Position numbers and translations under genes: made by a program. Under the pieces are notes generated by a model. The model saw only the letters and a program-made list of their open reading frames with translations, was not told the DNA's origin and made no database searches. From the NCBI GenBank assembly GCA_963665665.1, contig OY762428.1:544001-608000 (forward strand): a stretch of 64,000 nucleotides of DNA. Reading direction: 5' to 3'. Each line of letters opens with the position of its first letter. The first letter of the stretch is position 1. Shown in pieces: positions 40,514 to 60,436 of this stretch. The stretch is from Candidatus Kapaibacterium sp. (GTDB lineage: Bacteria > Bacteroidota > Ignavibacteria > Kapaibacteriales > UBA2268).

Positions 40514-42694
40514 TCAGATATAGGCTTCTTTAATTTTTTCATTTTCCTCACGAACAATATTCCTTAGGTTTTCTATGCGGGTCTTCAGCTCATTAACTTT
40601 AGATTCAGCAGAATCATGCTCTGACTTTAACGTTCGCATTTTTTCGAGCATATCATTCATATCAATATTTAACTCTGTTATATTTGATTGGGTTTTATCA
40701 AGATTTTTCAATTCTTTATTAAAATCCATTCTTCTTTTAATAAACCTCCCGCTGTTTAGAGCTAACAAACCAGTAATTATCAGCAATATAATTCCAACCG
40801 CACTGCCTGAAAATCCATCAGCAAAATAAGTAATAAGGAAAACAATAAGAGTCGCTGAAATATTTATTAAAATAGGTTTTAAAGCGGTATTTTCAAGAGT
40901 TTCGTTCTTACGATTCCTAAGTGCAATTAGAACCTCTTCATTTTCAAGATACTGTTTCCTGATATTTTCATAGTCCTCCGCTTTTGTTTTCAGTGAGGCT
41001 TCAAGTTCTCTTTTGGTTTTTATTTGTCCGGTAAGTTCTTCTTCACTTAATTTTATCTTTTCCCTAATCTCATTCCGCCTTCTTTTCCAAAATTCCTCTA
41101 CACTGCTTCTAAGGTCATTAAAATAATCACTGTTATAAAGTTTAAAATATTCCCTGACAGATTCTCTGAATCTGTCTGCAAGAGCAATCGTAAATTTATT
41201 TCGTTGGAATAAGTCCGGTTTTTTGGTAACCAGATCATTAATTATATCAATTTTCTCCGGGACAATATACTTAATAGCAGAATTAACATCGAATGACCTG
41301 AAAATTGATATAACAAATAATGCTTCAATCTCTTTAGCTGTATATGAAGCAAGAAGTTGCGCTCCGGAATGAATTATTGCAGCCATTTTATCAAGCTGAC
41401 GGTAAGCAGCAGAAGCTTCAAAACGGAGAGCCTCCCTGATAAAATGCGATATTTCGGGAATTATCTGTACTCTTCCGTCGCTGCCTTCAATTATTTCGGC
41501 ATATTCAGGTGCATTCAGGAAAAAATTATACGCTTCAGCATAAAATTCCTTCAGAAGAGGCATACATTTCAGATCCTGAAGGTCGAAATCACCAAGGAAG
41601 GAAGCAGACATAAGCCAGTCCCGCTGATATTCCGGCAGATATTTCATAATCATGTCGGCAGCCTGCTGAAAGACTGATTTATCACCGTTGGTATTCTCAT
41701 GCCCGCCAACCCTCTGGATATCAATCCACAATTCAACCAGATAAGGAATACCTCTGGTAAGCCTGTAAATCATTTCCAGATCAAAATCTTTTCCCGGGAG
41801 CATTTCTTCAATAATCTCTTTCAGGTCATGCTTTTTGAAAGGGGCAAAATCAATTGAATACCTTCTTTTAAAAATATCAATATTTTTTACCGATAAAATT
41901 TCTTCAAGAGTTCTTTCTCTGGATGAAACGATAAACCTGAAATCAAACAGATCAACTACCCTCAGCCCAGCCGGGGCTGATGACATATCATAGAAATTAA
42001 AATCGCGGAGCTTCGCAGAATAATAATATCCTGCAAAAATTTCGGTAAGCCATTCGGATAAAGAACCGGTAATCTCATCAGAATTATCGATAATAAACAA
42101 TATCTTCAATGGTTTTTCCGGTTTCTCGAAATCATCCGGGTCAGCGATAGAAGGATAAAACCCCGTTATCAGGTCAATAATAAATGATTCAGCGCAAATT
42201 TTCCCATTCTGAAGCAATAGGGGCAACCGTTTATCATTAGGGAAATTTTCTTTAGCTAAATTTTCATAATGATTTTTATCAGGTTCAAAAAGCCTTAACT
42301 CGGGAGTAGATTTTAAATACAGATTATCAAGAATTAATTCATGAAATTCAAAGTTTTTTACTTTTGATTCAGGAATTATTTTATCAATATTCTCTTTGTT
42401 CGATATAGTCTCGGCAAAAATTAAATTTTTATTTTTATCAGGAACAATTTTCTGGTCAGCTATCTTGCAGAGCATATCGGGAAGGAACCTGATATCGTGA
42501 GCTGCATTTAATGGCAGAATTAAATCAAAATCACTATTCCTTACTACTGTATCTGCAATTCTGCGAACAAATGAAGTCTTGCCGGTACCAAATATTCCAC
42601 TTATCAAAAAGAACAAATTGGCAGCACCATCACCAGAAGGCATTGCCAAATTTTCACTAACTACCCTGACAAGGTCATTCTGACCGTTATCCAT
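40514..42694 (-). CDS. P-loop NTPase (STAND-like) with C-terminal coiled coils and two TM helices
   Basis: GIFGTGKT Walker A, ILFIIDN Walker B, FIVSSR, LTRGIP; coiled coil-2TM-coiled coil tail. Confidence 0.65.
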   Translation of the reverse strand: MDNGQNDLVRVVSENLAMPSGDGAANLFFLISGIFGTGKTSFVRRIADTVVRNSDFDLILPLNAAHDIRFLPDMLCKIADQKIVPDKNKNLIFAETISNKENIDKIIPESKVKNFEFHELILDNLYLKSTPELRLFEPDKNHYENLAKENFPNDKRLPLLLQNGKICAESFIIDLITGFYPSIADPDDFEKPEKPLKILFIIDNSDEITGSLSEWLTEIFAGYYYSAKLRDFNFYDMSSAPAGLRVVDLFDFRFIVSSRERTLEEILSVKNIDIFKRRYSIDFAPFKKHDLKEIIEEMLPGKDFDLEMIYRLTRGIPYLVELWIDIQRVGGHENTNGDKSVFQQAADMIMKYLPEYQRDWLMSASFLGDFDLQDLKCMPLLKEFYAEAYNFFLNAPEYAEIIEGSDGRVQIIPEISHFIREALRFEASAAYRQLDKMAAIIHSGAQLLASYTAKEIEALFVISIFRSFDVNSAIKYIVPEKIDIINDLVTKKPDLFQRNKFTIALADRFRESVREYFKLYNSDYFNDLRSSVEEFWKRRRNEIREKIKLSEEELTGQIKTKRELEASLKTKAEDYENIRKQYLENEEVLIALRNRKNETLENTALKPILINISATLIVFLITYFADGFSGSAVGIILLIITGLLALNSGRFIKRRMDFNKELKNLDKTQSNITELNIDMNDMLEKMRTLKSEHDSAESKVNELKTRIENLRNIVREENEKIKEAYI

Positions 42695-42709: not shown

Positions 42710-43129
42710 TTAACTCAACAGGAATACCATTCTGAGCGTGGTACCCTCAGGCCCTGATTGGTAATTAACTTCGTCCATCAGTGTTTTAATCAAAAAAACC
42801 CCTCGCCCGCTGGCTTTCATAAGGTTTTCAGGCTGCCTTGGGTCAGCAACTTCCTCATGGTTGAATCCGCTGCCTTCATCCTGTATAGTAATTTGAATCT
42901 CACTGCCGGTAGCCTTAATATGGAAGTAAACTTTTTTATCGGGATTCTGATCATTCCCGTGGCAAATAGCATTATTCAAGGCTTCAGTAACAGCAATAAG
43001 CAAGTTATAAAATTTCTCGTCCGGAATATCTACTTTTTTCCGGATATCATAAAAAAGCGGTTCTACAATCTGTACAGATTTTTTATCGCTTTCGAGTTGT
43101 TTTTCTATTTCAAACAGAATTTTTTCCAT
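42710..43129 (-). CDS. RsbW-type anti-sigma/serine kinase (HATPase_c_2)
   Basis: EALNNAICHGN, DEGSGF, SGRGVFLI..LMD. Confidence 0.9.
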   Translation of the reverse strand: MEKILFEIEKQLESDKKSVQIVEPLFYDIRKKVDIPDEKFYNLLIAVTEALNNAICHGNDQNPDKKVYFHIKATGSEIQITIQDEGSGFNHEEVADPRQPENLMKASGRGVFLIKTLMDEVNYQSGPEGTTLRMVFLLS

Positions 43130-49606: not shown

Positions 49607-51661
49607 TTATTTTTTGCAGTATTTATCCAGCCACTTGAAAAATTCTGTATTCCAGATAATAAATTCCTGAGGATGAGCAATGAAATGGGTTTCATTCGGG
49701 AAAATAATTATCTTTGAATCTATTCCCTGTGCCTGTGCAGCAGTAAAAGCCTCGAGGCTCTGCGTGTATGGAACACGAAAATCATACTCACCTGTTGTTA
49801 TCAATATTGGAGTATTCCAATTCTGAACGTATTTATGAGGTGAGAATTTCTCGTACTGCTCGCGATTTTCTTTTTCCCAATAGGGGCCGCCATATTCCCA
49901 GTTGGGAAACCACAATTCCTCGGTTGAACCATACATACTTTCAAAGTTAAATACCCCACAATGAGCAATAAATGCTTTAAATCTGTTATCATGGTGGCCG
50001 GCAAGCCAGAATGCAGCATAACCTCCGGCACTTGCTCCAACGGCACAAAGCCCGTCTTTGTCAACATAAGGTTCTTTTGCCATGGCATCGGTTGCGGCAA
50101 GAATATCAGTCATTGGCATTCCACCCCAGTCTTTGCTGATAGCATCATTCCAATCCTGTCCAAAGCCGGGAAGCCCCCTGCGGTTAGGAGCCATAACAAT
50201 ATACCCCTGAGAAGCCATCATGTAGTGATTCCAACGAAAATGGAAACGTGGAGTTATTGTTGACTGCGGCCCACCCTGAAGATAAGTTATCATTGGATAT
50301 TTTTTGTTTGGATCAAAGTTCGGAGGATATAATACCCAGCAGTGAACTTTCTTACCATCCGTAGATTCTACCCATTTCTCTTCAACTTTAATTTTTTCGT
50401 ATTTTATAGTTCTTGAAAAGTTTTCTTTTGTAAGCTGTACCAGTTCGCCACCATTAATTTTCAGCCTGAAATATTCTATGGGGTGCTGAAAATCCTGGCG
50501 TCCAACAACAAGGTAATTTCCGTCAGGAGTAATTTGCATACCACCACCATAATTATAAAACCCCTTGGTCAGCATTTCGTATTTTCCGGAAAGATCAATC
50601 TTATAAACCTGGATGGTAGCATTATCTCCGGCAGTAAAATAAATATTTTTACTATCAGGCGACCAAATATAATCATAAACCCATTGATCCAGATTTTTCG
50701 TAAGATATTCAATTTTCCCCGACTGACGATTATAAAGCATAAGGCGAATTTTGTCTGATTCAAACCCTGCTCTTTCCTGGCTGGTGAATGCTATCCATTT
50801 TCCATCAGGAGAATATTGAGGGAACTTATCAAAACCAGGCATATCTTTGGTAATATTTCTGGTTTTACCGGTATTGATATCAACAAGAAAAATATCTGTA
50901 TTTGTATTCATCTCGTAGTCAGGGGTTTTCTTGCTCGTGTAGGCAATCTGGTTTGATTCAGGCGACCAGGCAATCTCCTCGGCTCCTCCGAATGGTTTTA
51001 CCGGGGTTTCATATATTTCACCGTTCATCAGATCCTTTGCCTTACCACCACCAACAGGCTGAACAAATAAATGAGAATAATACTCATCATTCCAAACACT
51101 CCAGTGCCTTATAGGAAGATCATCGTATATTCTGATCTTTGCCTGGCTATAATCCGGGTATTGCTCTGCAACAGTTTTCTTCATTTGAACATCCGATGTG
51201 TAACAAACATATTTTCCATCCGGAGATATGTGATATGTTTCAACACCATTCGGGGCGTTAGTGATCATTTTTGCGCTGCCATTGGGATATTCGCCCGTAT
51301 AAACCTGGTTGCTTCCACTGCCACTGTTCAAATAAGCAATTTTCTTTCCGTCTTTCATCCAGCTGATACTGCTTTTCCCGTTATTATCTGCCGGGATATT
51401 TTTTCTGTCCTCGCCGTCAATACCAATTGAATACACTTTCGATTTGAATTTATTTGATTTTATATCAGGTATCCTGACGCTGTAAATTAATGTTTTTCCA
51501 TCAGGAGAAAGAACTGGCGACCCGAGTCTGCTTAACGACATCAGATCCTCGGCAGTAAAAATTTTACCTTCATGCTTAGTTGTTTTGGGTATTATATCCT
51601 GTGCATTAAGTGTAATATTCAAAACAAACAGGCCCAAAAATATTATGAAAAGATTTCTCAT
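49607..51661 (-). CDS. S9 family peptidase (prolyl oligopeptidase/acylaminoacyl peptidase-like), exported
   Basis: Beta-propeller WSPD repeats; GGPQ, GASAGG nucleophile, DFRVP, ETH. Confidence 0.93.
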   Translation of the reverse strand: MRNLFIIFLGLFVLNITLNAQDIIPKTTKHEGKIFTAEDLMSLSRLGSPVLSPDGKTLIYSVRIPDIKSNKFKSKVYSIGIDGEDRKNIPADNNGKSSISWMKDGKKIAYLNSGSGSNQVYTGEYPNGSAKMITNAPNGVETYHISPDGKYVCYTSDVQMKKTVAEQYPDYSQAKIRIYDDLPIRHWSVWNDEYYSHLFVQPVGGGKAKDLMNGEIYETPVKPFGGAEEIAWSPESNQIAYTSKKTPDYEMNTNTDIFLVDINTGKTRNITKDMPGFDKFPQYSPDGKWIAFTSQERAGFESDKIRLMLYNRQSGKIEYLTKNLDQWVYDYIWSPDSKNIYFTAGDNATIQVYKIDLSGKYEMLTKGFYNYGGGMQITPDGNYLVVGRQDFQHPIEYFRLKINGGELVQLTKENFSRTIKYEKIKVEEKWVESTDGKKVHCWVLYPPNFDPNKKYPMITYLQGGPQSTITPRFHFRWNHYMMASQGYIVMAPNRRGLPGFGQDWNDAISKDWGGMPMTDILAATDAMAKEPYVDKDGLCAVGASAGGYAAFWLAGHHDNRFKAFIAHCGVFNFESMYGSTEELWFPNWEYGGPYWEKENREQYEKFSPHKYVQNWNTPILITTGEYDFRVPYTQSLEAFTAAQAQGIDSKIIIFPNETHFIAHPQEFIIWNTEFFKWLDKYCKK

Positions 51662-51844
51662 TCTTTTATCCAAAGATTTATAAAACAAATAATTACAAGT
51701 TTATGCAAAATAATCAAAATGGTTGAAAAATTTAGGAATTTTTGGATTTTACAGAAGTAAATGTAAAATCCAAAAGATTCTCCAAGCTATTATCAATTAT
51801 CGATTTTTTTCATCCAGTAAATTTTTTAATCAGCTTTTTATCAA

Positions 51845-51888: not shown

Positions 51889-54800
51889 TTAAATCTCTAC
51901 TATCATCTTCTTCAGCTTGTCAGTCTGATCATGAAGGTAATGGGAGAGACGCAAAGCAAGGTCCGGATGTTTGGTAAGCAGCGTCTTCAGTTTGTCTTTC
52001 GGCAGCTTCATTATTCTCGCGGAACTTATTACCGGCTGGGCTGTAACAGAGGATTTGTCATCCCACACAGCACCTTCACCGAAAATCTCTCCTGTACCAA
52101 TTACATTGATAGTACCGAGCCATCCCATTACCGAGTGCCTCATCTGCTCGACAGCGCCCTCACGAATAAGGTAAACATCCCTGTTCATATCATTTTCCCA
52201 AACAACTTCCTCATCGGGATCGTAATATCTTTCCATGGCAATGCCGGCTAATGATGAAATAGCCTCGTCATCCATTTCTTTGAAGAGATCAAGTGAATTC
52301 AGGAATTCTATTCTCTGCTGCAATGAATTAACCACCATATTTCTCATTTTATTTTCATCAGGTTTCTTCCATTCAAACCCGCTGAGTTCAAGAGCTTTGG
52401 CTGTTTTATCAGAAAGGATATCCATCTTTGTGGCGTTGATTTTATCGAAGTCCTCGCTCAGCCAACCCTTGTGAAGCATTATTGCCTCGATAAACGGCCT
52501 GAATCCATCTCTTTCGAAATTTGAATAAAGGAAGTGAATGAATTCTTTCAGGTCGAATGTTTCCACGTTAAGGTTCAACTTACTGCCGGATAATATGTCT
52601 GAAATATCAACCTTCATCGGATTTTCGATGTGGTAAGTACTGTTCAACAGGTTTTCCCTTCCGGAAAGAGTAAGCACGGCATTACTGACGTAATCAACAA
52701 AAGAAAAGTCGTAATAATCACCCTTTAGAACAGCACCAATATTTATAAATGCACGGAAAATGTTATAAAATGCATTGTCATCAATATTCTGCTGGTGAAC
52801 TCCTGTCTCCGAATTATAAACTATATTTCCTATACGATAAATATTGGTTTTTATCCCTTTTTCACGGGCTGCGATAACCCTTGTTTCGGCTTCGAGTTTT
52901 GTTTTAACATAATAGTTATCTACTTCCTGGCCAATATCACATTTATCCTCGGAAAATAGAACAACATCATTGCCGGGAACATGTCCGAGAGCAACTGAAA
53001 TTGTCGAAATATGGTGAAAATCTTTTTTACGTCCGTCACCGGCAAAGGCAAGAATATTATCGGTTGCTTTCACATTAGCCCGATAGAAATCTTCGTAAGC
53101 GCCGTAGTGCTTAACAATCGCAGCTGAGTGCCATACACAGTCGCATTCTTCACAAAGCCGCGAATAATTTTCATTATCCAAACCCAAACTGTCTTCGGCA
53201 ATATCTCCGCATATTACCTCCACACCTGATTCCTGAATATCAATATAATCATTGGGGAAATAGAATTTCAGTTTATTTTCCAGCCTTTGCATTGCTTTAT
53301 CATTACTGTCGCCTCGCACAATGGCAGTAATTTTAACACCTTCTTTGCGGCTTAAATCCCTTAGCAGATAAATACCGAGATAACCTGTAGCCCCTGTTAA
53401 CAGTATATGCTTATAGCCATTGTGTACAGTCAGGTCAAGGCAGGCAAGCTGGCTGACTTCTTTCTGATATTCCTCTTCCTCGGTTTTCAATTCCGGTACT
53501 GTTCTGTAATCAACATCATTGAACTTAAATTCTCTCAGTTTTTCAAGCCTGATTTTCAGGTTATCCTCAGATTCATTGATATTTTCTGCAAGTTCTTCGA
53601 TTGTCGGATATTCAAAAATGTCATTTACCCGGACGTCGAAGTCCTTCTGGAGTTTAGCCGTCAGCGCCACGGCTTTCAGGCTGTGTCCGCCAAGTGAGAA
53701 GAAATCGTCTTTGATACTTATCTTATCAAGCCCGAGAATTTCCATCCATGCGTTAGCGATCTTTTCTTCCTTTTTATTTCGGGGAGCAACAAATTCTGCC
53801 CCTGAGGAAATTTTATCACCCGGTTCGGGAAGCTGGCGACGGTCAACCTTGCCGTTTGAGGTAAGCGGAAATTCATCCATGTGGATAAAGTATGACGGAA
53901 CCATGTAGTCCGGCAGATCCTTATGGAGAAATTCCCTGAGTTCATTAACAGTGATCTCATTTTCAGATACATAATAGGCACAGAGATATTTCTCGCCGTG
54001 TGTTTCTTCTTTAGCCAGAACAACTACTTTATTTATTTCATTATGTTTCAGCAGTTTATCTTCAATTTCTCCCAGTTCAATCCTGAATCCGCGTATCTTC
54101 ACCTGGAAGTCTATCCTTCCAAGATATTCCATTTCGCCGGACGGCAGCCTTCGGGCAAGGTCGCCGCTTCGGTACATTCTTTCTTTAGGGCGGTATGGGT
54201 TGGGAATAAATCTCTCCCCGGTTAGTTCTTCACGATTCATATAGCCACGTGCAACGCCTTCACCTCCAACACAAAGCTCTCCTGCAACTCCGTAGGGGAC
54301 GATATGCTGTTCAGTATCCATTATATAGCAGGTCAGTGTTGGTATAGGAAGCCCGATATTACTGATATTATTATCAATTTCATACTGACCTATTTCTTTA
54401 TAAGTCACATGTACGGTTGTTTCAGTGATACCATACATATTAATAAGTTTTGTTTCCGGGTAGCGTTTGTGGAAATTGTTCAGCAATATCGGCTTCAGAG
54501 CCTCACCGCCAAATATTACAAAGCGAAGGCCAAGTAATTTCTCTGTAAAATGTTCCTCGGTTTCTATCAGGTTATAGAATGCCCCGGGAGTCTGATTCAG
54601 TACTGTCACTTTTTTATCTGAAAGCAATTTGATAAAATCTTCCGGGTTTTGTGCTTCTTCCTTCGGAACAACCACAAGCTTACCACCGAACAGCAGCGGC
54701 CCGTACATTTCCCAAACCGAGAAATCAAATGAGAATGAATGGAATAAAGTCCAGACATCATGCTCGTCAAAATCAAACTGAAAGCGGCTGTTTTTCAGAA

Positions 54801-57800
54801 GGCGGACAAGATTGTGATGTTCAAGCATAACTCCCTTGGGTTTGCCTGTTGATCCTGAAGTATATATGATATAAATCATATCATCCGGACAGGATATTGG
54901 TTCAAGATTTTCACATTTTTCAGAGTAAAGTGCCTGATCATAAACATCAATGATTTCACCCTCAAAATCCAGCCTTTTTCCAAGTTCACTGCTTGATAGA
55001 AGAATCTTCGTACCACTGTCCGACAACATGAAATCAATTCTTTCCGGTGGATATTCGGGAATAACCGGCAGGTAAGCCCCGCCAGCTTTGATAATAGCCA
55101 GGGCACTGAGAACCATTTCCATTGAACGTTCCAGAAAAATGGCTACAATTGTATCAGCTTTAACGCCTTTACTTCTTAGTATTTTCGCAAGGCTGTTTGC
55201 TCTGTCGTTAAGTTCGCTGTATGTCCATGATTTGTCACCCAGCTCGATTGCTGTTCTTTCAGGAAAGCGTCTTACTGTTTCCTCGAATATCTCGTGGGCA
55301 GTTTTATTCTCCGGCCATTCTGCTTCCGTGTGGTTAAATTCATATAAAAGCGCTTTAAGTTCGTGGGAATCAATCATCTTCATGCTGCCAATTCTCATTT
55401 CCGGAGCCAGGCACATTTCGTTCATTATATTTTCCAGGTGGCGACACATTCTTGCAGCTGTTTCTTCTTTAAACAGGCTCGTTCTGTAGTACAGTTTTAG
55501 GTTGAGCATTTCATTCTGCTCTGTAAAGGTAAATGAAAGATCAAACTTAGCGCTGTGATTATTGAATTCCTTAATAACTGAATTTATTCCTTCAGATTGG
55601 AATTCGTAGCCTCCCATATTCTGCAGAACAAGTATTACATCAAATAATGGATTACGCCCCGATTCCCGGTTAACATTTATCTTATCATAAATATTCTCGA
55701 TCGGATAGTTCTGGTTTTCATACACGTCAAACAGTGTTGCTTTAACTTCATTAATCAGCTGAATAAAAGTCTTGTCTTTTTCGGGGAGGGCCCTGACTGG
55801 CAAAGTATTTACGAACATTCCGATCATATCCTCGGCCTCCTCTTTCAACCTGCCGCCCGTGGGCGAACCAATAACAATATCATTCTGATTTGTATATTTT
55901 GCCATAAGAACATACAGAGCAGACATAAGTACAACGTTCAGCGTAGTGTCCTGAGCTTTGGCTATCATATTGATTTTATTTGTAAGTTCAGGCATTATAT
56001 CAATTTCAAAAATATCGCCTTCATAATCGACCGATGCCTTTCTCGGCATATCTGTAGGAAGATCGAGTGTTGGTACATCAGCAAAGGTTTTTAGCCAGAA
56101 TTCCTCCTGTTTATGTATTTCATCGGACTGAATAATTTTATCTTCCCAACTAACATAATCCTTAAAGTGCAGTTTAAGAGCTTCGGGAGTTTCAGCGTTG
56201 TAAAATGCTGAAAGGTCCTTCATAAGAATAGTTAGTGAAATCCCGTCGAAAATAATATGGTGGAAATCCATCAGCAGGCATACTTTTTCTTTGGATATTC
56301 TTAGAAGTTTGAACCTTGCAAGGGGAGCCTTCTGCAGGTTGAACGGCCTGATAAATTCCAGCATTTTATCATTTATTTCATTATCCGAACAGTCGGCGAT
56401 CAAACGTTTTATCTTTGCCTTGGGATGAACTACCTGAACCGGAGTTCCATTTTTAACCTCAAATGATGTCCTTAATGCTTCGTGCCTTTCAACTAGTTTT
56501 TCAATAGCCTCGCTCAGGCGGGAAAGGTCAACATTTCCTTCAAGAGTTAAAATGCAGGGCACATTATATGTAGTACCGATATTTTTCATTTGCTCCAGTA
56601 CGAACAGCTGCCTTTGAGCGGATGATGCAGGGTAGAAGTTCGCAGGTTCTGCCGGAGTAAGTTCAATTATTTCATGCTTATCAGTCTGGTCAATATATTC
56701 TGCGAGCTTGGCAACTGTAGTCAGGTCAAAAAGGTTTTTAAGGCTAATTCTCAGGCTGAATTTTTTTTCTATCCTTGCCTGTAGAACAACCGCTTTAAGG
56801 GAGTGTCCGCCAAGATCAAAGAAATCATCATTTTTGCCGATCTTATCAATGCCAAGAATTTTTCCGAAAATTGAAGCAATGATTTTTTCTGTTTCGGTTT
56901 CAGGCTCTATATACTCTGTTTTTGATTCTTCAATAACTTTTGGTTCCGGCAGGGCCTTCCTGTCCACTTTGCCAACCGGAGTAAGCGGAATGGAATCAAT
57001 CCTCATCAGGTACTGCGGTATCATGTAATCCGGCAGAACCTCCCTTGCAGCAGCCTTAATTTTACCGGCATCCATTTCTTGATCTGCTATATAATAAGCG
57101 CAAAGATAAACACCCCGGGTATCCTGAATATCAACAACCACGGCATCTTTGATACCTTCAATATTTTTAATGGCTGTCTCAATCTCGCCAAGTTCAATCC
57201 TGTACCCCCTAACTTTAACCTGGCGATCAATCCTGCCAAGGTATTCAATCGTTCCGTCCGGCAGCCAGCGGCAAAGATCTCCGGTCCGATACATTCTTTC
57301 GCCGGTAACAGGGTTAGTAACAAAAACGGCATCTGTTTTTTCCGGCAGGTTCAGATAGCCTCTGGCAAGCTGTGCCCCTCCGACACATAGTTCACCCGGA
57401 ACTCCAATAGGCTGTAAATTGCTGAATTTATCAAAAATATAGCAAGGCGAATTCTTCACCGGATAGCCGATTGGAATATTCTTTTTAATTTCATTAACAT
57501 AGTAATATGTTGATATAACCGTATTCTCTGTCGGGCCGTAGCCATTAATCAGATCGAAACCGGTTTTTTTATATGACCTTAATTTCTCTCCGCCTGTAAT
57601 CAGCCAACGCATACTTTTATTCTTGGTAATCTCCATAAATTGTTCGCCAAACTGGGTTATCATCACAGCGGTTGTAATCTTATTCCGGACTATATAATCC
57701 TCAGTCTCAACAATAGACTTCCTTATCTCTTCAGATAAAATATGAAGTTCAGCACCGGCAAGCAACTGAGGGAAGATTTCAATTACGGAAGCGTCGAAAC

Positions 57801-59745
57801 TAAATGCCAAAGTTTTAAGGCAGCGGTCATTTTCATCCAGTTTGCCTTCTTCAATCAGCCACTGGCACATGTTAACAAGGGAATGATTCTCAATCATTAC
57901 TCCTTTGGGTTTGCCTGTGGAGCCTGATGTATAAATAATATAAGCAAGGCTATCAGGGCCGGACTCGGATGGTATTTTTTCCACCAAAAGGTAGTTGTTT
58001 CTGTCATCCAGATCAATTACAGCTCCGTTAAAATCAATTTCTTCGTATAAATGTCTTTGTGATATTAATATAGGAGCGGCGCTGTCGTCCAGCATATATT
58101 TTTTTCTGTCCGCAGGATATGAGGGATCTATCGGAACGAAACAGCTGCCTGATTTCAGTACTGCAATAAAAGCAACAATTATTTCTACTGACCGCTCAGC
58201 AAGAATTACAACAGGAACATCCGGACCGCCTCCATGTTCAATTATCCTTGATGCCAGGGCATCGGCCTTTTTATTTAGTTCAGCGTATGTAAGCTTATCA
58301 TCTTTGAATACTACAGCAGTTCTGTCAGAGAACATCCGGGCTGTCTTAGCAAACAGATCCTGGTAGGTAAAATCATGTTCAGGCAGTTCAACCGGCTTAT
58401 TGAAATGGTTCAGTATAATTGATTTTTCATAAACAGGCAGAATATCAATATCTGACAGTGCTATTTCCGAATTTTCAATCACCTGGAAAACGATTCGGTT
58501 AAGTGTATCGATAATTTCAACGGCTTTTTTATCGTTTATCAGATCAAGGTTGTAATTGATATTGAATTCAATAGGATTAAGTTCAGGATTATTATAATCA
58601 TAGGAAATAAACGCACATAATTCGCCCGGCCCTACATAAGAATTCACACTCGTAGATGTTGTTTCATTATCCAGAGTTTCAAAATTCTGTGCCAGGCTGA
58701 TAGTTACCATTTCATCAAACTTACCATGAATATTTTCCAGGGCATCAATTATTAGGTCGTAGGACAAATTTCCATGATCCACATATTTCTTAATTTTATT
58801 ATTAACAAATTTTATCAAATCAGAAAATGGGCCGTTAATATCTGATGTGATTCTGAAAGGCAGGTAGTTAACAAACATGCCAAAAGTATCTTTGAACTCC
58901 TCGGGCCGGTTTGCTATTGGAATGCCAATTGCAATATCGTTTTTGCCGCTTATCCTTGTCAGGTAAACATACATAGCAGCAAGGTAAAGTTTAAAAGCGG
59001 ATGTATGATGCTCACGTGTAAATTCAAATATTTTTTCACTTTCCTCTTTAGAAAGGAAAATAGTTTTAAGGCCGTTGGCCTTGCTTTCCATTTTATCAAA
59101 AGGATTAACCGCAACTGGTTCGGGAAGCGTTGAAAATTCTTCAAGCCAATAATTTTTATCCTCTTCGGCCCTGTTGCTTTTCAGGTAATTACTTTCATGG
59201 CCGGCAAAATCAGTATATGATTTTGTAATATTGGGTTCAGGTGTAACTCCTGCTTCAAATATTTGAGCTAATTCTGATATACGGTCTATCATCAGTTTCA
59301 TACACCAACCATCAACAATGGTGTGGTGAATATTCAGGTAATAGCCGTTTTTTCCGTCAGGAAGCTTTAAAAGCACAAATGAAAAAAGGTCAGAATCGAA
59401 TAGTTGAATTGGCTTACGGGAAATTGATTTTACCCATTCATTCATTTTAGTATTGTTTGTTTTTTCCCGTTCTTCAGATCCGGAAAAATCGATTATTTCA
59501 AATTCTCTTTCTTCATATTCAGCAATATATTGAAATATTTTATCTTCAACTTTAGTATATCTTATTCTTATACCTACGGTTTCATAAATGAAAAAATTGA
59601 TTGCTTTGGAGATTATTTCCGGAGAATAATCTTTTTTGAACCTTACTATCCTTGGAATATTCCACAAGGCGTTTTCCGGTTCCAGCAGGTCTATAAATAG
59701 CAGCCTCATTTGCGGGTGCGAAATCGGAATCAATTCTTTTTCCAT
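51889..59745 (-). CDS. Two-module NRPS C-A-T-C-A-T-R with C-terminal cNMP-binding-like domain
   Basis: HHTIVDG and HHIIFDG (C); YTSGSTGKPKG x2 (A); LGGHSL x2 (T); TGATGYLG and YVKTK (reductase); LDLF..M...I..LA...VYLI.EG.V...GEIFGE (CAP/Crp fold). Confidence 0.93.
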   Translation of the reverse strand: MEKELIPISHPQMRLLFIDLLEPENALWNIPRIVRFKKDYSPEIISKAINFFIYETVGIRIRYTKVEDKIFQYIAEYEEREFEIIDFSGSEEREKTNNTKMNEWVKSISRKPIQLFDSDLFSFVLLKLPDGKNGYYLNIHHTIVDGWCMKLMIDRISELAQIFEAGVTPEPNITKSYTDFAGHESNYLKSNRAEEDKNYWLEEFSTLPEPVAVNPFDKMESKANGLKTIFLSKEESEKIFEFTREHHTSAFKLYLAAMYVYLTRISGKNDIAIGIPIANRPEEFKDTFGMFVNYLPFRITSDINGPFSDLIKFVNNKIKKYVDHGNLSYDLIIDALENIHGKFDEMVTISLAQNFETLDNETTSTSVNSYVGPGELCAFISYDYNNPELNPIEFNINYNLDLINDKKAVEIIDTLNRIVFQVIENSEIALSDIDILPVYEKSIILNHFNKPVELPEHDFTYQDLFAKTARMFSDRTAVVFKDDKLTYAELNKKADALASRIIEHGGGPDVPVVILAERSVEIIVAFIAVLKSGSCFVPIDPSYPADRKKYMLDDSAAPILISQRHLYEEIDFNGAVIDLDDRNNYLLVEKIPSESGPDSLAYIIYTSGSTGKPKGVMIENHSLVNMCQWLIEEGKLDENDRCLKTLAFSFDASVIEIFPQLLAGAELHILSEEIRKSIVETEDYIVRNKITTAVMITQFGEQFMEITKNKSMRWLITGGEKLRSYKKTGFDLINGYGPTENTVISTYYYVNEIKKNIPIGYPVKNSPCYIFDKFSNLQPIGVPGELCVGGAQLARGYLNLPEKTDAVFVTNPVTGERMYRTGDLCRWLPDGTIEYLGRIDRQVKVRGYRIELGEIETAIKNIEGIKDAVVVDIQDTRGVYLCAYYIADQEMDAGKIKAAAREVLPDYMIPQYLMRIDSIPLTPVGKVDRKALPEPKVIEESKTEYIEPETETEKIIASIFGKILGIDKIGKNDDFFDLGGHSLKAVVLQARIEKKFSLRISLKNLFDLTTVAKLAEYIDQTDKHEIIELTPAEPANFYPASSAQRQLFVLEQMKNIGTTYNVPCILTLEGNVDLSRLSEAIEKLVERHEALRTSFEVKNGTPVQVVHPKAKIKRLIADCSDNEINDKMLEFIRPFNLQKAPLARFKLLRISKEKVCLLMDFHHIIFDGISLTILMKDLSAFYNAETPEALKLHFKDYVSWEDKIIQSDEIHKQEEFWLKTFADVPTLDLPTDMPRKASVDYEGDIFEIDIMPELTNKINMIAKAQDTTLNVVLMSALYVLMAKYTNQNDIVIGSPTGGRLKEEAEDMIGMFVNTLPVRALPEKDKTFIQLINEVKATLFDVYENQNYPIENIYDKINVNRESGRNPLFDVILVLQNMGGYEFQSEGINSVIKEFNNHSAKFDLSFTFTEQNEMLNLKLYYRTSLFKEETAARMCRHLENIMNEMCLAPEMRIGSMKMIDSHELKALLYEFNHTEAEWPENKTAHEIFEETVRRFPERTAIELGDKSWTYSELNDRANSLAKILRSKGVKADTIVAIFLERSMEMVLSALAIIKAGGAYLPVIPEYPPERIDFMLSDSGTKILLSSSELGKRLDFEGEIIDVYDQALYSEKCENLEPISCPDDMIYIIYTSGSTGKPKGVMLEHHNLVRLLKNSRFQFDFDEHDVWTLFHSFSFDFSVWEMYGPLLFGGKLVVVPKEEAQNPEDFIKLLSDKKVTVLNQTPGAFYNLIETEEHFTEKLLGLRFVIFGGEALKPILLNNFHKRYPETKLINMYGITETTVHVTYKEIGQYEIDNNISNIGLPIPTLTCYIMDTEQHIVPYGVAGELCVGGEGVARGYMNREELTGERFIPNPYRPKERMYRSGDLARRLPSGEMEYLGRIDFQVKIRGFRIELGEIEDKLLKHNEINKVVVLAKEETHGEKYLCAYYVSENEITVNELREFLHKDLPDYMVPSYFIHMDEFPLTSNGKVDRRQLPEPGDKISSGAEFVAPRNKKEEKIANAWMEILGLDKISIKDDFFSLGGHSLKAVALTAKLQKDFDVRVNDIFEYPTIEELAENINESEDNLKIRLEKLREFKFNDVDYRTVPELKTEEEEYQKEVSQLACLDLTVHNGYKHILLTGATGYLGIYLLRDLSRKEGVKITAIVRGDSNDKAMQRLENKLKFYFPNDYIDIQESGVEVICGDIAEDSLGLDNENYSRLCEECDCVWHSAAIVKHYGAYEDFYRANVKATDNILAFAGDGRKKDFHHISTISVALGHVPGNDVVLFSEDKCDIGQEVDNYYVKTKLEAETRVIAAREKGIKTNIYRIGNIVYNSETGVHQQNIDDNAFYNIFRAFINIGAVLKGDYYDFSFVDYVSNAVLTLSGRENLLNSTYHIENPMKVDISDILSGSKLNLNVETFDLKEFIHFLYSNFERDGFRPFIEAIMLHKGWLSEDFDKINATKMDILSDKTAKALELSGFEWKKPDENKMRNMVVNSLQQRIEFLNSLDLFKEMDDEAISSLAGIAMERYYDPDEEVVWENDMNRDVYLIREGAVEQMRHSVMGWLGTINVIGTGEIFGEGAVWDDKSSVTAQPVISSARIMKLPKDKLKTLLTKHPDLALRLSHYLHDQTDKLKKMIVEI

Positions 59746-59779: not shown

Positions 59780-60436
59780 CTATATAAAATTAATTTTTTT
59801 GCCTGGTTCACAATCATAAATACAGCTTGTCAGTTTATAATTCTCATCAAAAAAGTGCTGTCCGAATTTAAACTTTTTCCATTCTTTATTTTCAGAAATA
59901 ATTTTAAATTTTTCAAGGTCAAAATCCAGGCCCAGAACATCAATCTTAAAGCCCTTACCTAAAGCCTTAATGAAACTTTCTTTAATCGTCCATAATGTAT
60001 AAAACCTGTTAAATCTTTCTGCGTAAGTACTTGAATTTATGAAATCAATCTGTCGCCTGTTAAACACAGTTGGCGCTATCTCATCAATATCAATATCAAT
60101 AATCTCCTCAATATCAATACCACAGGGCTGATCTGAAATTATGCAGGCAATATAATCACCTGAGTGAGATATGTTAAAGTAAAAATCCGAAGGCATTGCC
60201 GGATATGGCTTCAAATCCTTATCTGTTCTTATTATAATATCTTCGAAATTAATACCGGATTTTCTTCTGATCACTTCCCGAATAAGCCAGTCACCTTTAA
60301 GTGATCTGAGACGGTCGCTATCTAACTTCTTTTTTTGAATATACTTTTTTCTCTCGAATGGCAAATAATTCAAAAGGAAGGAATAATCTTCCGATTTCTC
60401 TGATTTTTCGATATAACTTAGGTAAATCTCGTTCAA
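59780..60436 (-). CDS. Sfp-type 4'-phosphopantetheinyl transferase
   Basis: FNISHSG, GIDIE, WTIKESFIKALG.G; directly upstream of the NRPS. Confidence 0.92.
   Translation of the reverse strand: MNEIYLSYIEKSEKSEDYSFLLNYLPFERKKYIQKKKLDSDRLRSLKGDWLIREVIRRKSGINFEDIIIRTDKDLKPYPAMPSDFYFNISHSGDYIACIISDQPCGIDIEEIIDIDIDEIAPTVFNRRQIDFINSSTYAERFNRFYTLWTIKESFIKALGKGFKIDVLGLDFDLEKFKIISENKEWKKFKFGQHFFDENYKLTSCIYDCEPGKKINFI

What the first reader, a model, noticed from the sequence alone, without database searches (positions are those of the whole stretch)
51889..52330. NRPS terminal reductase fused to a cNMP-binding-like (CAP/Crp) domain
Seen: after the reductase domain, ~140 aa match the CAP effector fold (LF..M....I..LA, VYLI.EG.V, G.GEIFGE, C-helix HPDLAL.L). 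The phosphate-binding cassette GEGAVWDDKSSVTA lacks the usual Arg. Established: reductase-terminated NRPSs normally end at the R domain. Inference: product release could be gated by a second messenger or other ligand, or the domain may mediate dimerisation, linking signalling directly to an assembly line. I do not recall a characterised example.
Basis: partly seen in the sequence, partly recalled or inferred. Interest (0 to 1): 0.75.

Follow-up and report, generated by a model that had tools for sequence, protein, structure and literature searches.

The report
Peptide synthetase with CAP-fold tail
A bacterial peptide-building enzyme ends in an extra domain shaped like a cyclic-AMP sensor that has lost its key cyclic-AMP residue; the same tail is conserved in many unrelated bacteria and probably pairs two enzymes together, with a possible role in controlling product release.

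Summary
Confirmed and not an artefact. The 2,618-aa NRPS (C-A-T-C-A-T-R) ends in a ~140-aa CAP/cNMP-fold domain (Pfam PF00027, 43.7 bits, cut-off 27.5). The fusion defines a family: 54 of 119 listed non-self homologues and 30 of 80 GTDB loci from at least seven phyla. It fits one gain and about three losses on the reductase tree and is under purifying selection. The phosphate-binding Arg is absent in 113 of 113 family domains (65 of 95 control domains have it), so canonical cAMP/cGMP gating is unlikely. The family instead has a private GWxG hairpin (108 of 113) and a full heptad C-helix. A homodimer model passed (0.63, best control 0.00), but like CAP dimers are solved. Best reading: a cNMP-blind dimerisation module fixed on the reductase. 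Gating by a non-cyclic ligand or by partner-switch proteins (10 of 30 fused loci, 1 of 49 unfused) remains open. No description was found in the paper searches. Nothing here is shown by experiment.

The parts
51889..59745 (-). Dimodular NRPS gene, C-A-T-C-A-T-R-CNB-like, 2,618 aa. Catalytic motifs intact: HHxxxDG at aa 140 and 1162, carrier Ser 982 and 2022, reductase GxxGxxG at 2117 and YxxxK at 2279
51892..52302 (-). CAP/cNMP-fold domain without DNA-binding part, aa 2482-2618, at the very C-terminus
52111..52134 (-). Family-specific beta4-beta5 hairpin S-x-x-G-W-x-G-T, aa 2538-2545; GWxG in 108 of 113 family domains, GW in 1 of 95 controls
52045..52080 (-). Degenerate phosphate-binding cassette, aa 2556-2567: G and E kept, Arg replaced by Ser
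51892..51966 (-). C-helix, aa 2594-2618, with heptad hydrophobic stripe (2601, 2604, 2608, 2611, 2615, 2618); predicted dimer coiled coil
52303..52356 (-). Linking helix between R and the CAP-fold domain, aa 2464-2481; A-L-x-x-R conserved only in fused proteins (L2475 0.91 vs 0.04, R2478 0.94 vs 0.02)
52357..53415 (-). Thioester reductase (R) domain, aa 2111-2463
53848..55287 (-). Second adenylation domain, aa 1487-1966; pocket residues read as a Thr-type code (assignment recalled)
59780..60436 (-). Sfp-type phosphopantetheinyl transferase, 34 bp upstream on the same strand; likely co-transcribed activator of the NRPS

Best explanation
The tail is a CAP-fold domain that no longer reads cyclic nucleotides. 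It sits in a fixed position on the reductase and pairs with the same domain of a second NRPS through its C-helix, so the enzyme works as a tail-to-tail homodimer. Shown by sequence: fold, loss of the Arg, conservation, fixed spacing. Predicted by models: fixed R-domain packing and CAP-type dimer. Inferred: the dimer stabilises or positions the reductase and its carrier-docking helix-turn-helix, and so affects release of the dipeptide aldehyde or alcohol. Product (inferred): probably an N-acylated aliphatic-residue-Thr aldehyde or alcohol.
For: Arg in 0 of 113 family domains against 65 of 95 controls; the cassette Ala column holds V 37, I 25, N 17, F 12 of 113 against A 66 of 95; other pocket columns are variable. 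PMC11224242 section 8 names G, E and R as the conserved ribose and phosphate contacts. Heptad positions are hydrophobic in 80-100% of the family. Homodimer model of aa 2355-2618: score 0.63, best of 3 controls 0.00; the mark was reached by 20 of 30 solved pairs and 1 of 23 single chains; runs agree in at least 94% of contacts; partner pLDDT at least 59; contacts are 2601, 2604, 2608, 2611, 2615 with their mates, and no reductase residue is listed in the interface. T-R-CNB model pTM 0.87 over 603 aa, above the ~0.77 ceiling expected if the 140-aa tail were free (ceiling is my arithmetic). R-end to C-terminus is 155-160 aa in 32 of 32 intact fused genes. dN/dS 0.07-0.23 in the 7 of 9 pairs where dS could be computed.
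Against: CAP/Crp dimers are solved, so the complex model may pass from memory; pLDDT in it was only about 60. About 28 reductases inside the fused branch lack the tail, so it is dispensable in some lineages. A plain dimeriser does not explain the near-invariant Trp hairpin, which is not among the listed dimer contacts and is kept in three proteins without a reductase (P0186, P0206, P0219). No coordinates were available to see the R interface, and covariation was noise.
Confidence: 0.5

Rival explanations
1. The domain is a sensor for a non-cyclic small molecule (nucleoside, amino-acid-like metabolite or the enzyme's own product). Binding closes the partner's C-helix over the pocket and switches reductive release. 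Compatible with dimerisation.
For: G (106 of 113) and E (74 of 113) of the cassette are kept and an acidic residue follows in 80 of 113; the base-reading position holds Glu in 62 of 113. In the dimer model that position (2612) lies over the other subunit's pocket. Precedent: trypanosomatid PKA subunits lost the Arg, gained a Glu and bind nucleosides (PMC10959531 passages). The same domain subtype ends MFS-HEAT transporter proteins.
Against: The new acidic residue is one position earlier than the trypanosome Glu. Pocket columns vary, and the window's own copy departs from the family at three of them (G2558, Q2607, K2612). No ligand was tested.
Confidence: 0.25
2. The domain is a docking surface for a partner-switch protein (STAS or RsbW-like kinase) or a transporter, so that a phosphatase/kinase circuit controls the NRPS directly.
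For: SpoIIE, RsbW-like or STAS genes lie in 10 of 30 fused loci and 1 of 49 unfused, in about four or five separate branches of the tree. MFS exporters: 12 of 30 against 3 of 49. STAS proteins acting directly on enzymes are reported (PMC8457831, PMC13555669; search listing and start of abstract only).
Against: The window has no STAS or SpoIIE gene; an RsbW-like gene lies 9 kb away. 20 of 30 fused loci show none. The profiles were built from fused loci, the loci are related, and the unfused set is mostly Bacillota. The same gene context is reported for Methanobrevibacter mru0068 (PMC2812497 passages), where no such tail is mentioned; I could not check that sequence.
Confidence: 0.12
3. It is a true cAMP/cGMP receptor that gates release, with another residue replacing the Arg.
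For: Fold and Pfam match; G-E kept; Glu at the base-reading position is the residue reported for a cGMP binder (PMC11224242 passage).
Against: Arg 0 of 113, no conserved basic residue nearby, acidic residue in the cassette.
Confidence: 0.07
4. Chance fusion, assembly artefact or vestigial remnant.
For: One of 33 fused genes is frameshifted within the domain (L015); the domain is less conserved than R (mean identity 0.30 against 0.45); P0221 looks chimeric.
Against: Dozens of independent assemblies carry the same junction and spacing; purifying selection; clustered on the R tree, 4 changes against 62 shuffled.
Confidence: 0.02

Closest known systems
Reductase-terminated dimodular NRPSs (aureusimine AusA, Methanobrevibacter Mru_0068/Mru_0351, myxalamid MxaA R)
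   Same: [quoted passage not shown]
   Different: The solved chains end at R (6VTJ is 491 aa and its match stops where the tail begins). AusA and MxcG family cut-offs are not reached (1659 of 2500 and 1006 of 2300 bits).
CAP/Crp effector domain (CRP, GlxR, Clr) and PycTIR CNBD
   Same: Fold (Z 18.4-18.6), G-E of the cassette, long C-helix ending at the hinge, predicted C-helix dimer.
   Different: No DNA-binding or TIR domain; Arg absent; private GWxG hairpin; separated from 32 generic domains by a branch with support 96.
Trypanosomatid PKA regulatory subunit (nucleoside-binding CNB)
   Same: Arg lost and an acidic residue gained in the cassette.
   Different: Acidic residue is one position earlier here; eukaryotic kinase context; resemblance only, no ligand tested.
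MFS-HEAT-cNMP transporter proteins and stand-alone copies (P0206, P0210, P0215, P0186, P0219)
   Same: Same domain subtype, nested among the NRPS copies in the tree.
   Different: No reductase; uncharacterised as far as I checked; two of five have lost the Trp; their taxonomy and neighbours stayed unchecked.

Membership tests
CAP/cNMP-binding fold (PF00027) | Profile score above the curated cut-off | tested here: met
   43.7 bits against 27.5
CAP/cNMP-binding fold (PF00027) | Beta-barrel with N-terminal helices, cassette helix, B and C helices | tested here: met
   Model pLDDT 95.9; Z 18.6, rmsd 2.0 A, 134 aligned to 4ev0
Cyclic-nucleotide receptors (CRP, PKA/PKG, PycTIR) | Cassette Gly-Glu for the ribose 2'-OH | tested here: met
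   G2556, E2557; G 106 and E 74 of 113 in the family
Cyclic-nucleotide receptors (CRP, PKA/PKG, PycTIR) | Cassette Arg for the cyclic phosphate | tested here: not met
   S2565; Arg in 0 of 113, controls 65 of 95
Cyclic-nucleotide receptors (CRP, PKA/PKG, PycTIR) | Measured cNMP binding | not testable with these tools
   needs ITC or thermal shift
Crp/Fnr transcription factors | C-terminal helix-turn-helix DNA-binding domain | tested here: not met
   Protein ends at the C-helix; no HTH family hit
Crp/Fnr transcription factors | Homodimer through the C-helix | tested here: inconclusive
   Model passes (0.63, best control 0.00) but like complexes are solved
Reductase-terminated NRPS | C, A, T modules with catalytic motifs | tested here: met
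Reductase-terminated NRPS | SDR-type R domain with GxxGxxG, YxxxK and carrier-docking helix-turn-helix | tested here: met
   NAD_binding_4 E 3.9e-49; Y2279 and K2283 invariant in 55 of 55; aligned to the 6VTJ helix-turn-helix. TIGR01746 falls just under its cut-off (203.9 of 213.35)
Reductase-terminated NRPS | R is the last domain | tested here: not met
   155 further residues
Nucleoside-binding CNB (trypanosomatid PKAR type) | Glu at the third position after the cassette Gly-Glu-x, replacing Ala | tested here: not met
   That column holds A 29, N 25, S 23 of 113; the acidic residue is one earlier

The most novel reading that the evidence does not exclude
A widespread class of dipeptide-aldehyde NRPSs carries its own sensor: a repurposed CAP-fold dimer that binds a non-cyclic ligand, perhaps the product, or a phosphorylation-controlled STAS partner, and switches reductive release. 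In loci with Cache-HAMP-SpoIIE sensors and exporters (L061, L070, L009) this would form a sigma-factor-free signalling circuit acting directly on the assembly line.
Probability: 0.25. Interest if true: 0.85.

Novelty: new variant of a known kind. Interest (0 to 1): 0.6.

Why it matters
NRPS output is usually controlled at transcription, and reductase domains normally end the protein. A conserved accessory domain after R in dozens of lineages points to an undescribed structural or allosteric layer at the release step. It also defines a CAP-fold subfamily with an unknown input, shared with MFS-HEAT transporters. It is directly testable with a 500-residue R-CNB construct, and a named strain carries the fusion in a compact operon (Vibrio profundum JAMM1780, locus L061).

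Tried and rejected
Assembly artefact: rejected. Idea that unfused relatives have a separate gene for the domain next door: 0 of 49 unfused loci have a GWxG-type neighbour; 2 have only generic cNMP proteins. Stand-alone search at near length found 1 generic hit among 21 candidates, and the longer-length profile search found none among 7,999 scored; both are weak negatives. Covariation on 99 sequences was noise and gave no R-tail contact map. A charge pair 2558/2602 did not covary; 2557/2607 did (68 both, 20 neither of 113) and 2536/2612 weakly; sequences are related, so the p-values are not valid. Plasmids: 0 of 390 matching records cover 80% of R plus tail. No terminator-like site and no promoter excess downstream. 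The IQ-TREE reductase tree did not finish, so the FastTree tree was used. The profile was swamped by NRPS columns. The ESM Atlas and cluster-member look-ups gave no answer, so names and taxa of P0186, P0206, P0210, P0215 and P0219 are unchecked. Metagenome and viral contig collections were not searched. Paper searches for the fusion: searches gave 0 papers; one search gave 3, of which one was opened (geosmin clusters, unrelated); two searches listed nothing relevant by title and abstract start; one search was uninformative because the term matched inside ordinary words.

Full report
Observation. The finding lies at the 3' end of one uninterrupted minus-strand ORF, 59745->51889, 2,618 aa. Pfam finds two C, two A and two T domains, a reductase (NAD_binding_4, aa 2116-2357) and cNMP_binding at aa 2506-2593; the last 146 aa alone score 43.7 bits against a cut-off of 27.5. 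All catalytic motifs checked are intact. An Sfp-type PPTase lies 34 bp upstream on the same strand. The other neighbours look like housekeeping genes, and a T9SS sorting domain suggests an FCB-group host (host assignment is inference). The domain's model (pLDDT 95.9) matches CAP, PKG, PycTIR and Clr domains, tied at Z 18.3-18.6; Foldseek agrees.

It is a family. A search with aa 2080-2618 listed 120 proteins; 55 including the query carry the same C-terminal domain, ending within 18 residues of the C-terminus. Of the 80 loci, 30 carry the fusion (27 genomes by record title; 32 intact genes plus one frameshifted in L015), 49 do not, and one is cut by a contig end. Record titles and tree labels cover Vulcanimicrobiota, Synergistota, Bacillota, Bacteroidota, Acidobacteriota, Thermodesulfobacteriota and Pseudomonadota; nearly all are MAGs, Vibrio profundum JAMM1780 being the named strain. 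The distance from R to the C-terminus is 155-160 aa in 32 of 32 intact genes. On a FastTree tree of 187 reductases (of 212; protein rows over 80% identical to a kept row were dropped), all 87 fused ones lie in one 115-row branch (support 93) with 28 unfused; 4 changes against 62 shuffled. That fits one gain and about three losses; no one-clade test was run. R and tail identities correlate (Spearman 0.67 over 1,431 non-independent pairs), and dN/dS of the tail is 0.07-0.23 in 7 of 9 pairs, two being saturated. Adenylation pockets vary widely across the family, so the tail follows the reductase, not one product.

The pocket. I aligned 113 distinct family domains (five from non-NRPS proteins, some fragments, only exact duplicates removed) and 95 generic cNMP domains to one profile. 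The cassette Gly (106) and Glu (74) are kept. The Arg is absent in 113 of 113 (Ser 74, Ala 33) against 65 of 95 controls. The residue after Gly-Glu is acidic in 80 of 113 and mostly hydrophobic in controls. The cassette Ala is mostly Val or Ile. PMC11224242 (section 8 read whole; further passages) names G, E and R as the conserved ribose and phosphate contacts of such domains. PMC10959531 (passages) shows that loss of the Arg with gain of a Glu turned trypanosomatid PKA into a nucleoside sensor, though its Glu sits one position later than the acidic residue here. Canonical cNMP binding is therefore unlikely, and another ligand is possible. Against a single shared ligand: pocket columns vary, and the window's copy has Gly2558, Gln2607 and Lys2612 where the family prefers Glu, Lys/Arg and Glu.

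What is conserved instead. A hairpin S-x-x-G-W-x-G-T (GWxG 108 of 113; GW 1 of 95 controls) and a complete C-helix whose heptad positions are 80-100% hydrophobic. The subfamily is split from 32 generic domains by a branch with support 96 on a short alignment. It includes three MFS-HEAT proteins or fragments and two stand-alone proteins, three of which keep the Trp without any reductase.

Models. T-R-tail folds with pLDDT 90.5 and pTM 0.87. A free 140-aa tail would cap pTM near 0.77 (my arithmetic), so the tail is placed confidently against R; I had no coordinates to see how. Residues conserved only in fused proteins cluster in the linking helix (A2474, L2475, R2478) and include F2415 in the helix-turn-helix that docks the carrier domain in the archaeal structure (PMC8024701 abstract and passages); some of these may be clade marks rather than contacts. 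Two copies of aa 2355-2618 gave a score of 0.63 with best control 0.00; the mark was reached by 20 of 30 solved pairs and 1 of 23 single chains; runs agree in at least 94% of contacts; partner pLDDT at least 59. The interface is the C-helix coiled coil, with the partner's helix tip crossing the pocket mouth. CAP dimers are solved, so this shows likeness, not binding. Trp2542 is not among the listed contacts.

Neighbours. MFS exporters lie in 12 of 30 fused and 3 of 49 unfused loci. SpoIIE, RsbW-like or STAS genes lie in 10 of 30 against 1 of 49; L061 reads STAS, NRPS, MFS, RsbW-like, Cache-HAMP-SpoIIE, and L070 reads NRPS, MATE-kinase, CoA-ligase-like, binding protein, Cache-HAMP-SpoIIE. The profiles came from fused loci, the loci are related and the sets differ in taxonomy. 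PMC2812497 (passages) already reports phosphatase, anti-sigma antagonist and MatE genes around the C-A-T-C-A-T-R enzyme mru0068, so this context is known and may not depend on the tail. The window has none of these nearby, apart from an RsbW-like gene 9 kb away.

Mechanism. Most likely (0.5) a cNMP-blind dimerisation module fixed on the reductase, affecting release structurally. Rivals, partly compatible with it: sensor of a non-cyclic ligand (0.25), docking site for partner-switch proteins or a transporter (0.12), true cNMP receptor (0.07), artefact or remnant (0.02). The product is inferred as an N-acyl aliphatic-Thr aldehyde or alcohol, from an N-terminal C domain with an intact active site and pocket residues; the substrate codes are recalled.

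Novelty. Searches for the fusion found no description; the library lacks most subscription papers and I saw no supplements. Automatic Pfam annotation of these proteins already shows both domains. Both parts are known folds; their conserved union, the family-wide loss of the Arg and the GWxG subfamily appear undescribed. I rate it a new variant of a known kind, interest 0.6, with 0.85 if ligand or partner gating is shown.

Noticed in passing
protein P0071 (Spirochaetales NRPS-R, 2,356 aa), around aa 1600-1790: Two PilZ matches (best aa 1703-1786) inserted in the C-terminal part of the adenylation domain: another second-messenger fold inside a related NRPS that lacks the CAP-fold tail.
   Followed up: no
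proteins P0206, P0210, P0215, P0186, P0219: MFS-HEAT proteins and stand-alone proteins carry the same CAP-fold subtype, nested among NRPS copies in the tree.
   Followed up: partly
L061:3155-15390 (Vibrio profundum): Compact same-strand run STAS, NRPS-R-CNB, MFS, RsbW-like, Cache-HAMP-SpoIIE, with no sigma factor seen among the genes checked; candidate signalling circuit.
   Followed up: partly
L052:11543-14733, L070:8290-14344, L075:1545-3299: MATE exporter fused to an RsbW-like kinase domain directly downstream of the NRPS in Desulfobacterota loci, followed in two by a CoA-ligase-like gene.
   Followed up: partly
window 49607-51688 (-): S9 oligopeptidase 200 bp downstream on the same strand; peptide aldehydes often inhibit proteases (recalled), but no homologue recurred beside other fused loci.
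   Followed up: partly
window 53848-55287 (-): Second adenylation domain has a Thr-type pocket unlike those read in the family, suggesting a domain swap.
   Followed up: no
L015:5450-13295: Second of two tandem NRPS copies is frameshifted inside the CAP-fold domain; assembly error or recent loss.
   Followed up: partly
L006, L019, L015, L014/L017: Tandem or near-tandem NRPS paralogues each with the tail, which would allow heterodimers if the tail dimerises.
   Followed up: no
proteins P0183 and P0221: Odd forms: C-R-tail without A or T domains (P0183), and an ATP-grasp domain joined to a partial R plus tail (P0221, possibly chimeric).
   Followed up: no
L011 (record titled Patescibacteria group): Its reductase is 74% identical to a Negativicutes copy with the same operon, so the contig may be misbinned.
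   Followed up: no
window 40514-42694 (-) and 42710-43129 (-): A 726-aa protein with only a weak NACHT-like match sits beside a stand-alone RsbW-like kinase gene.
   Followed up: no
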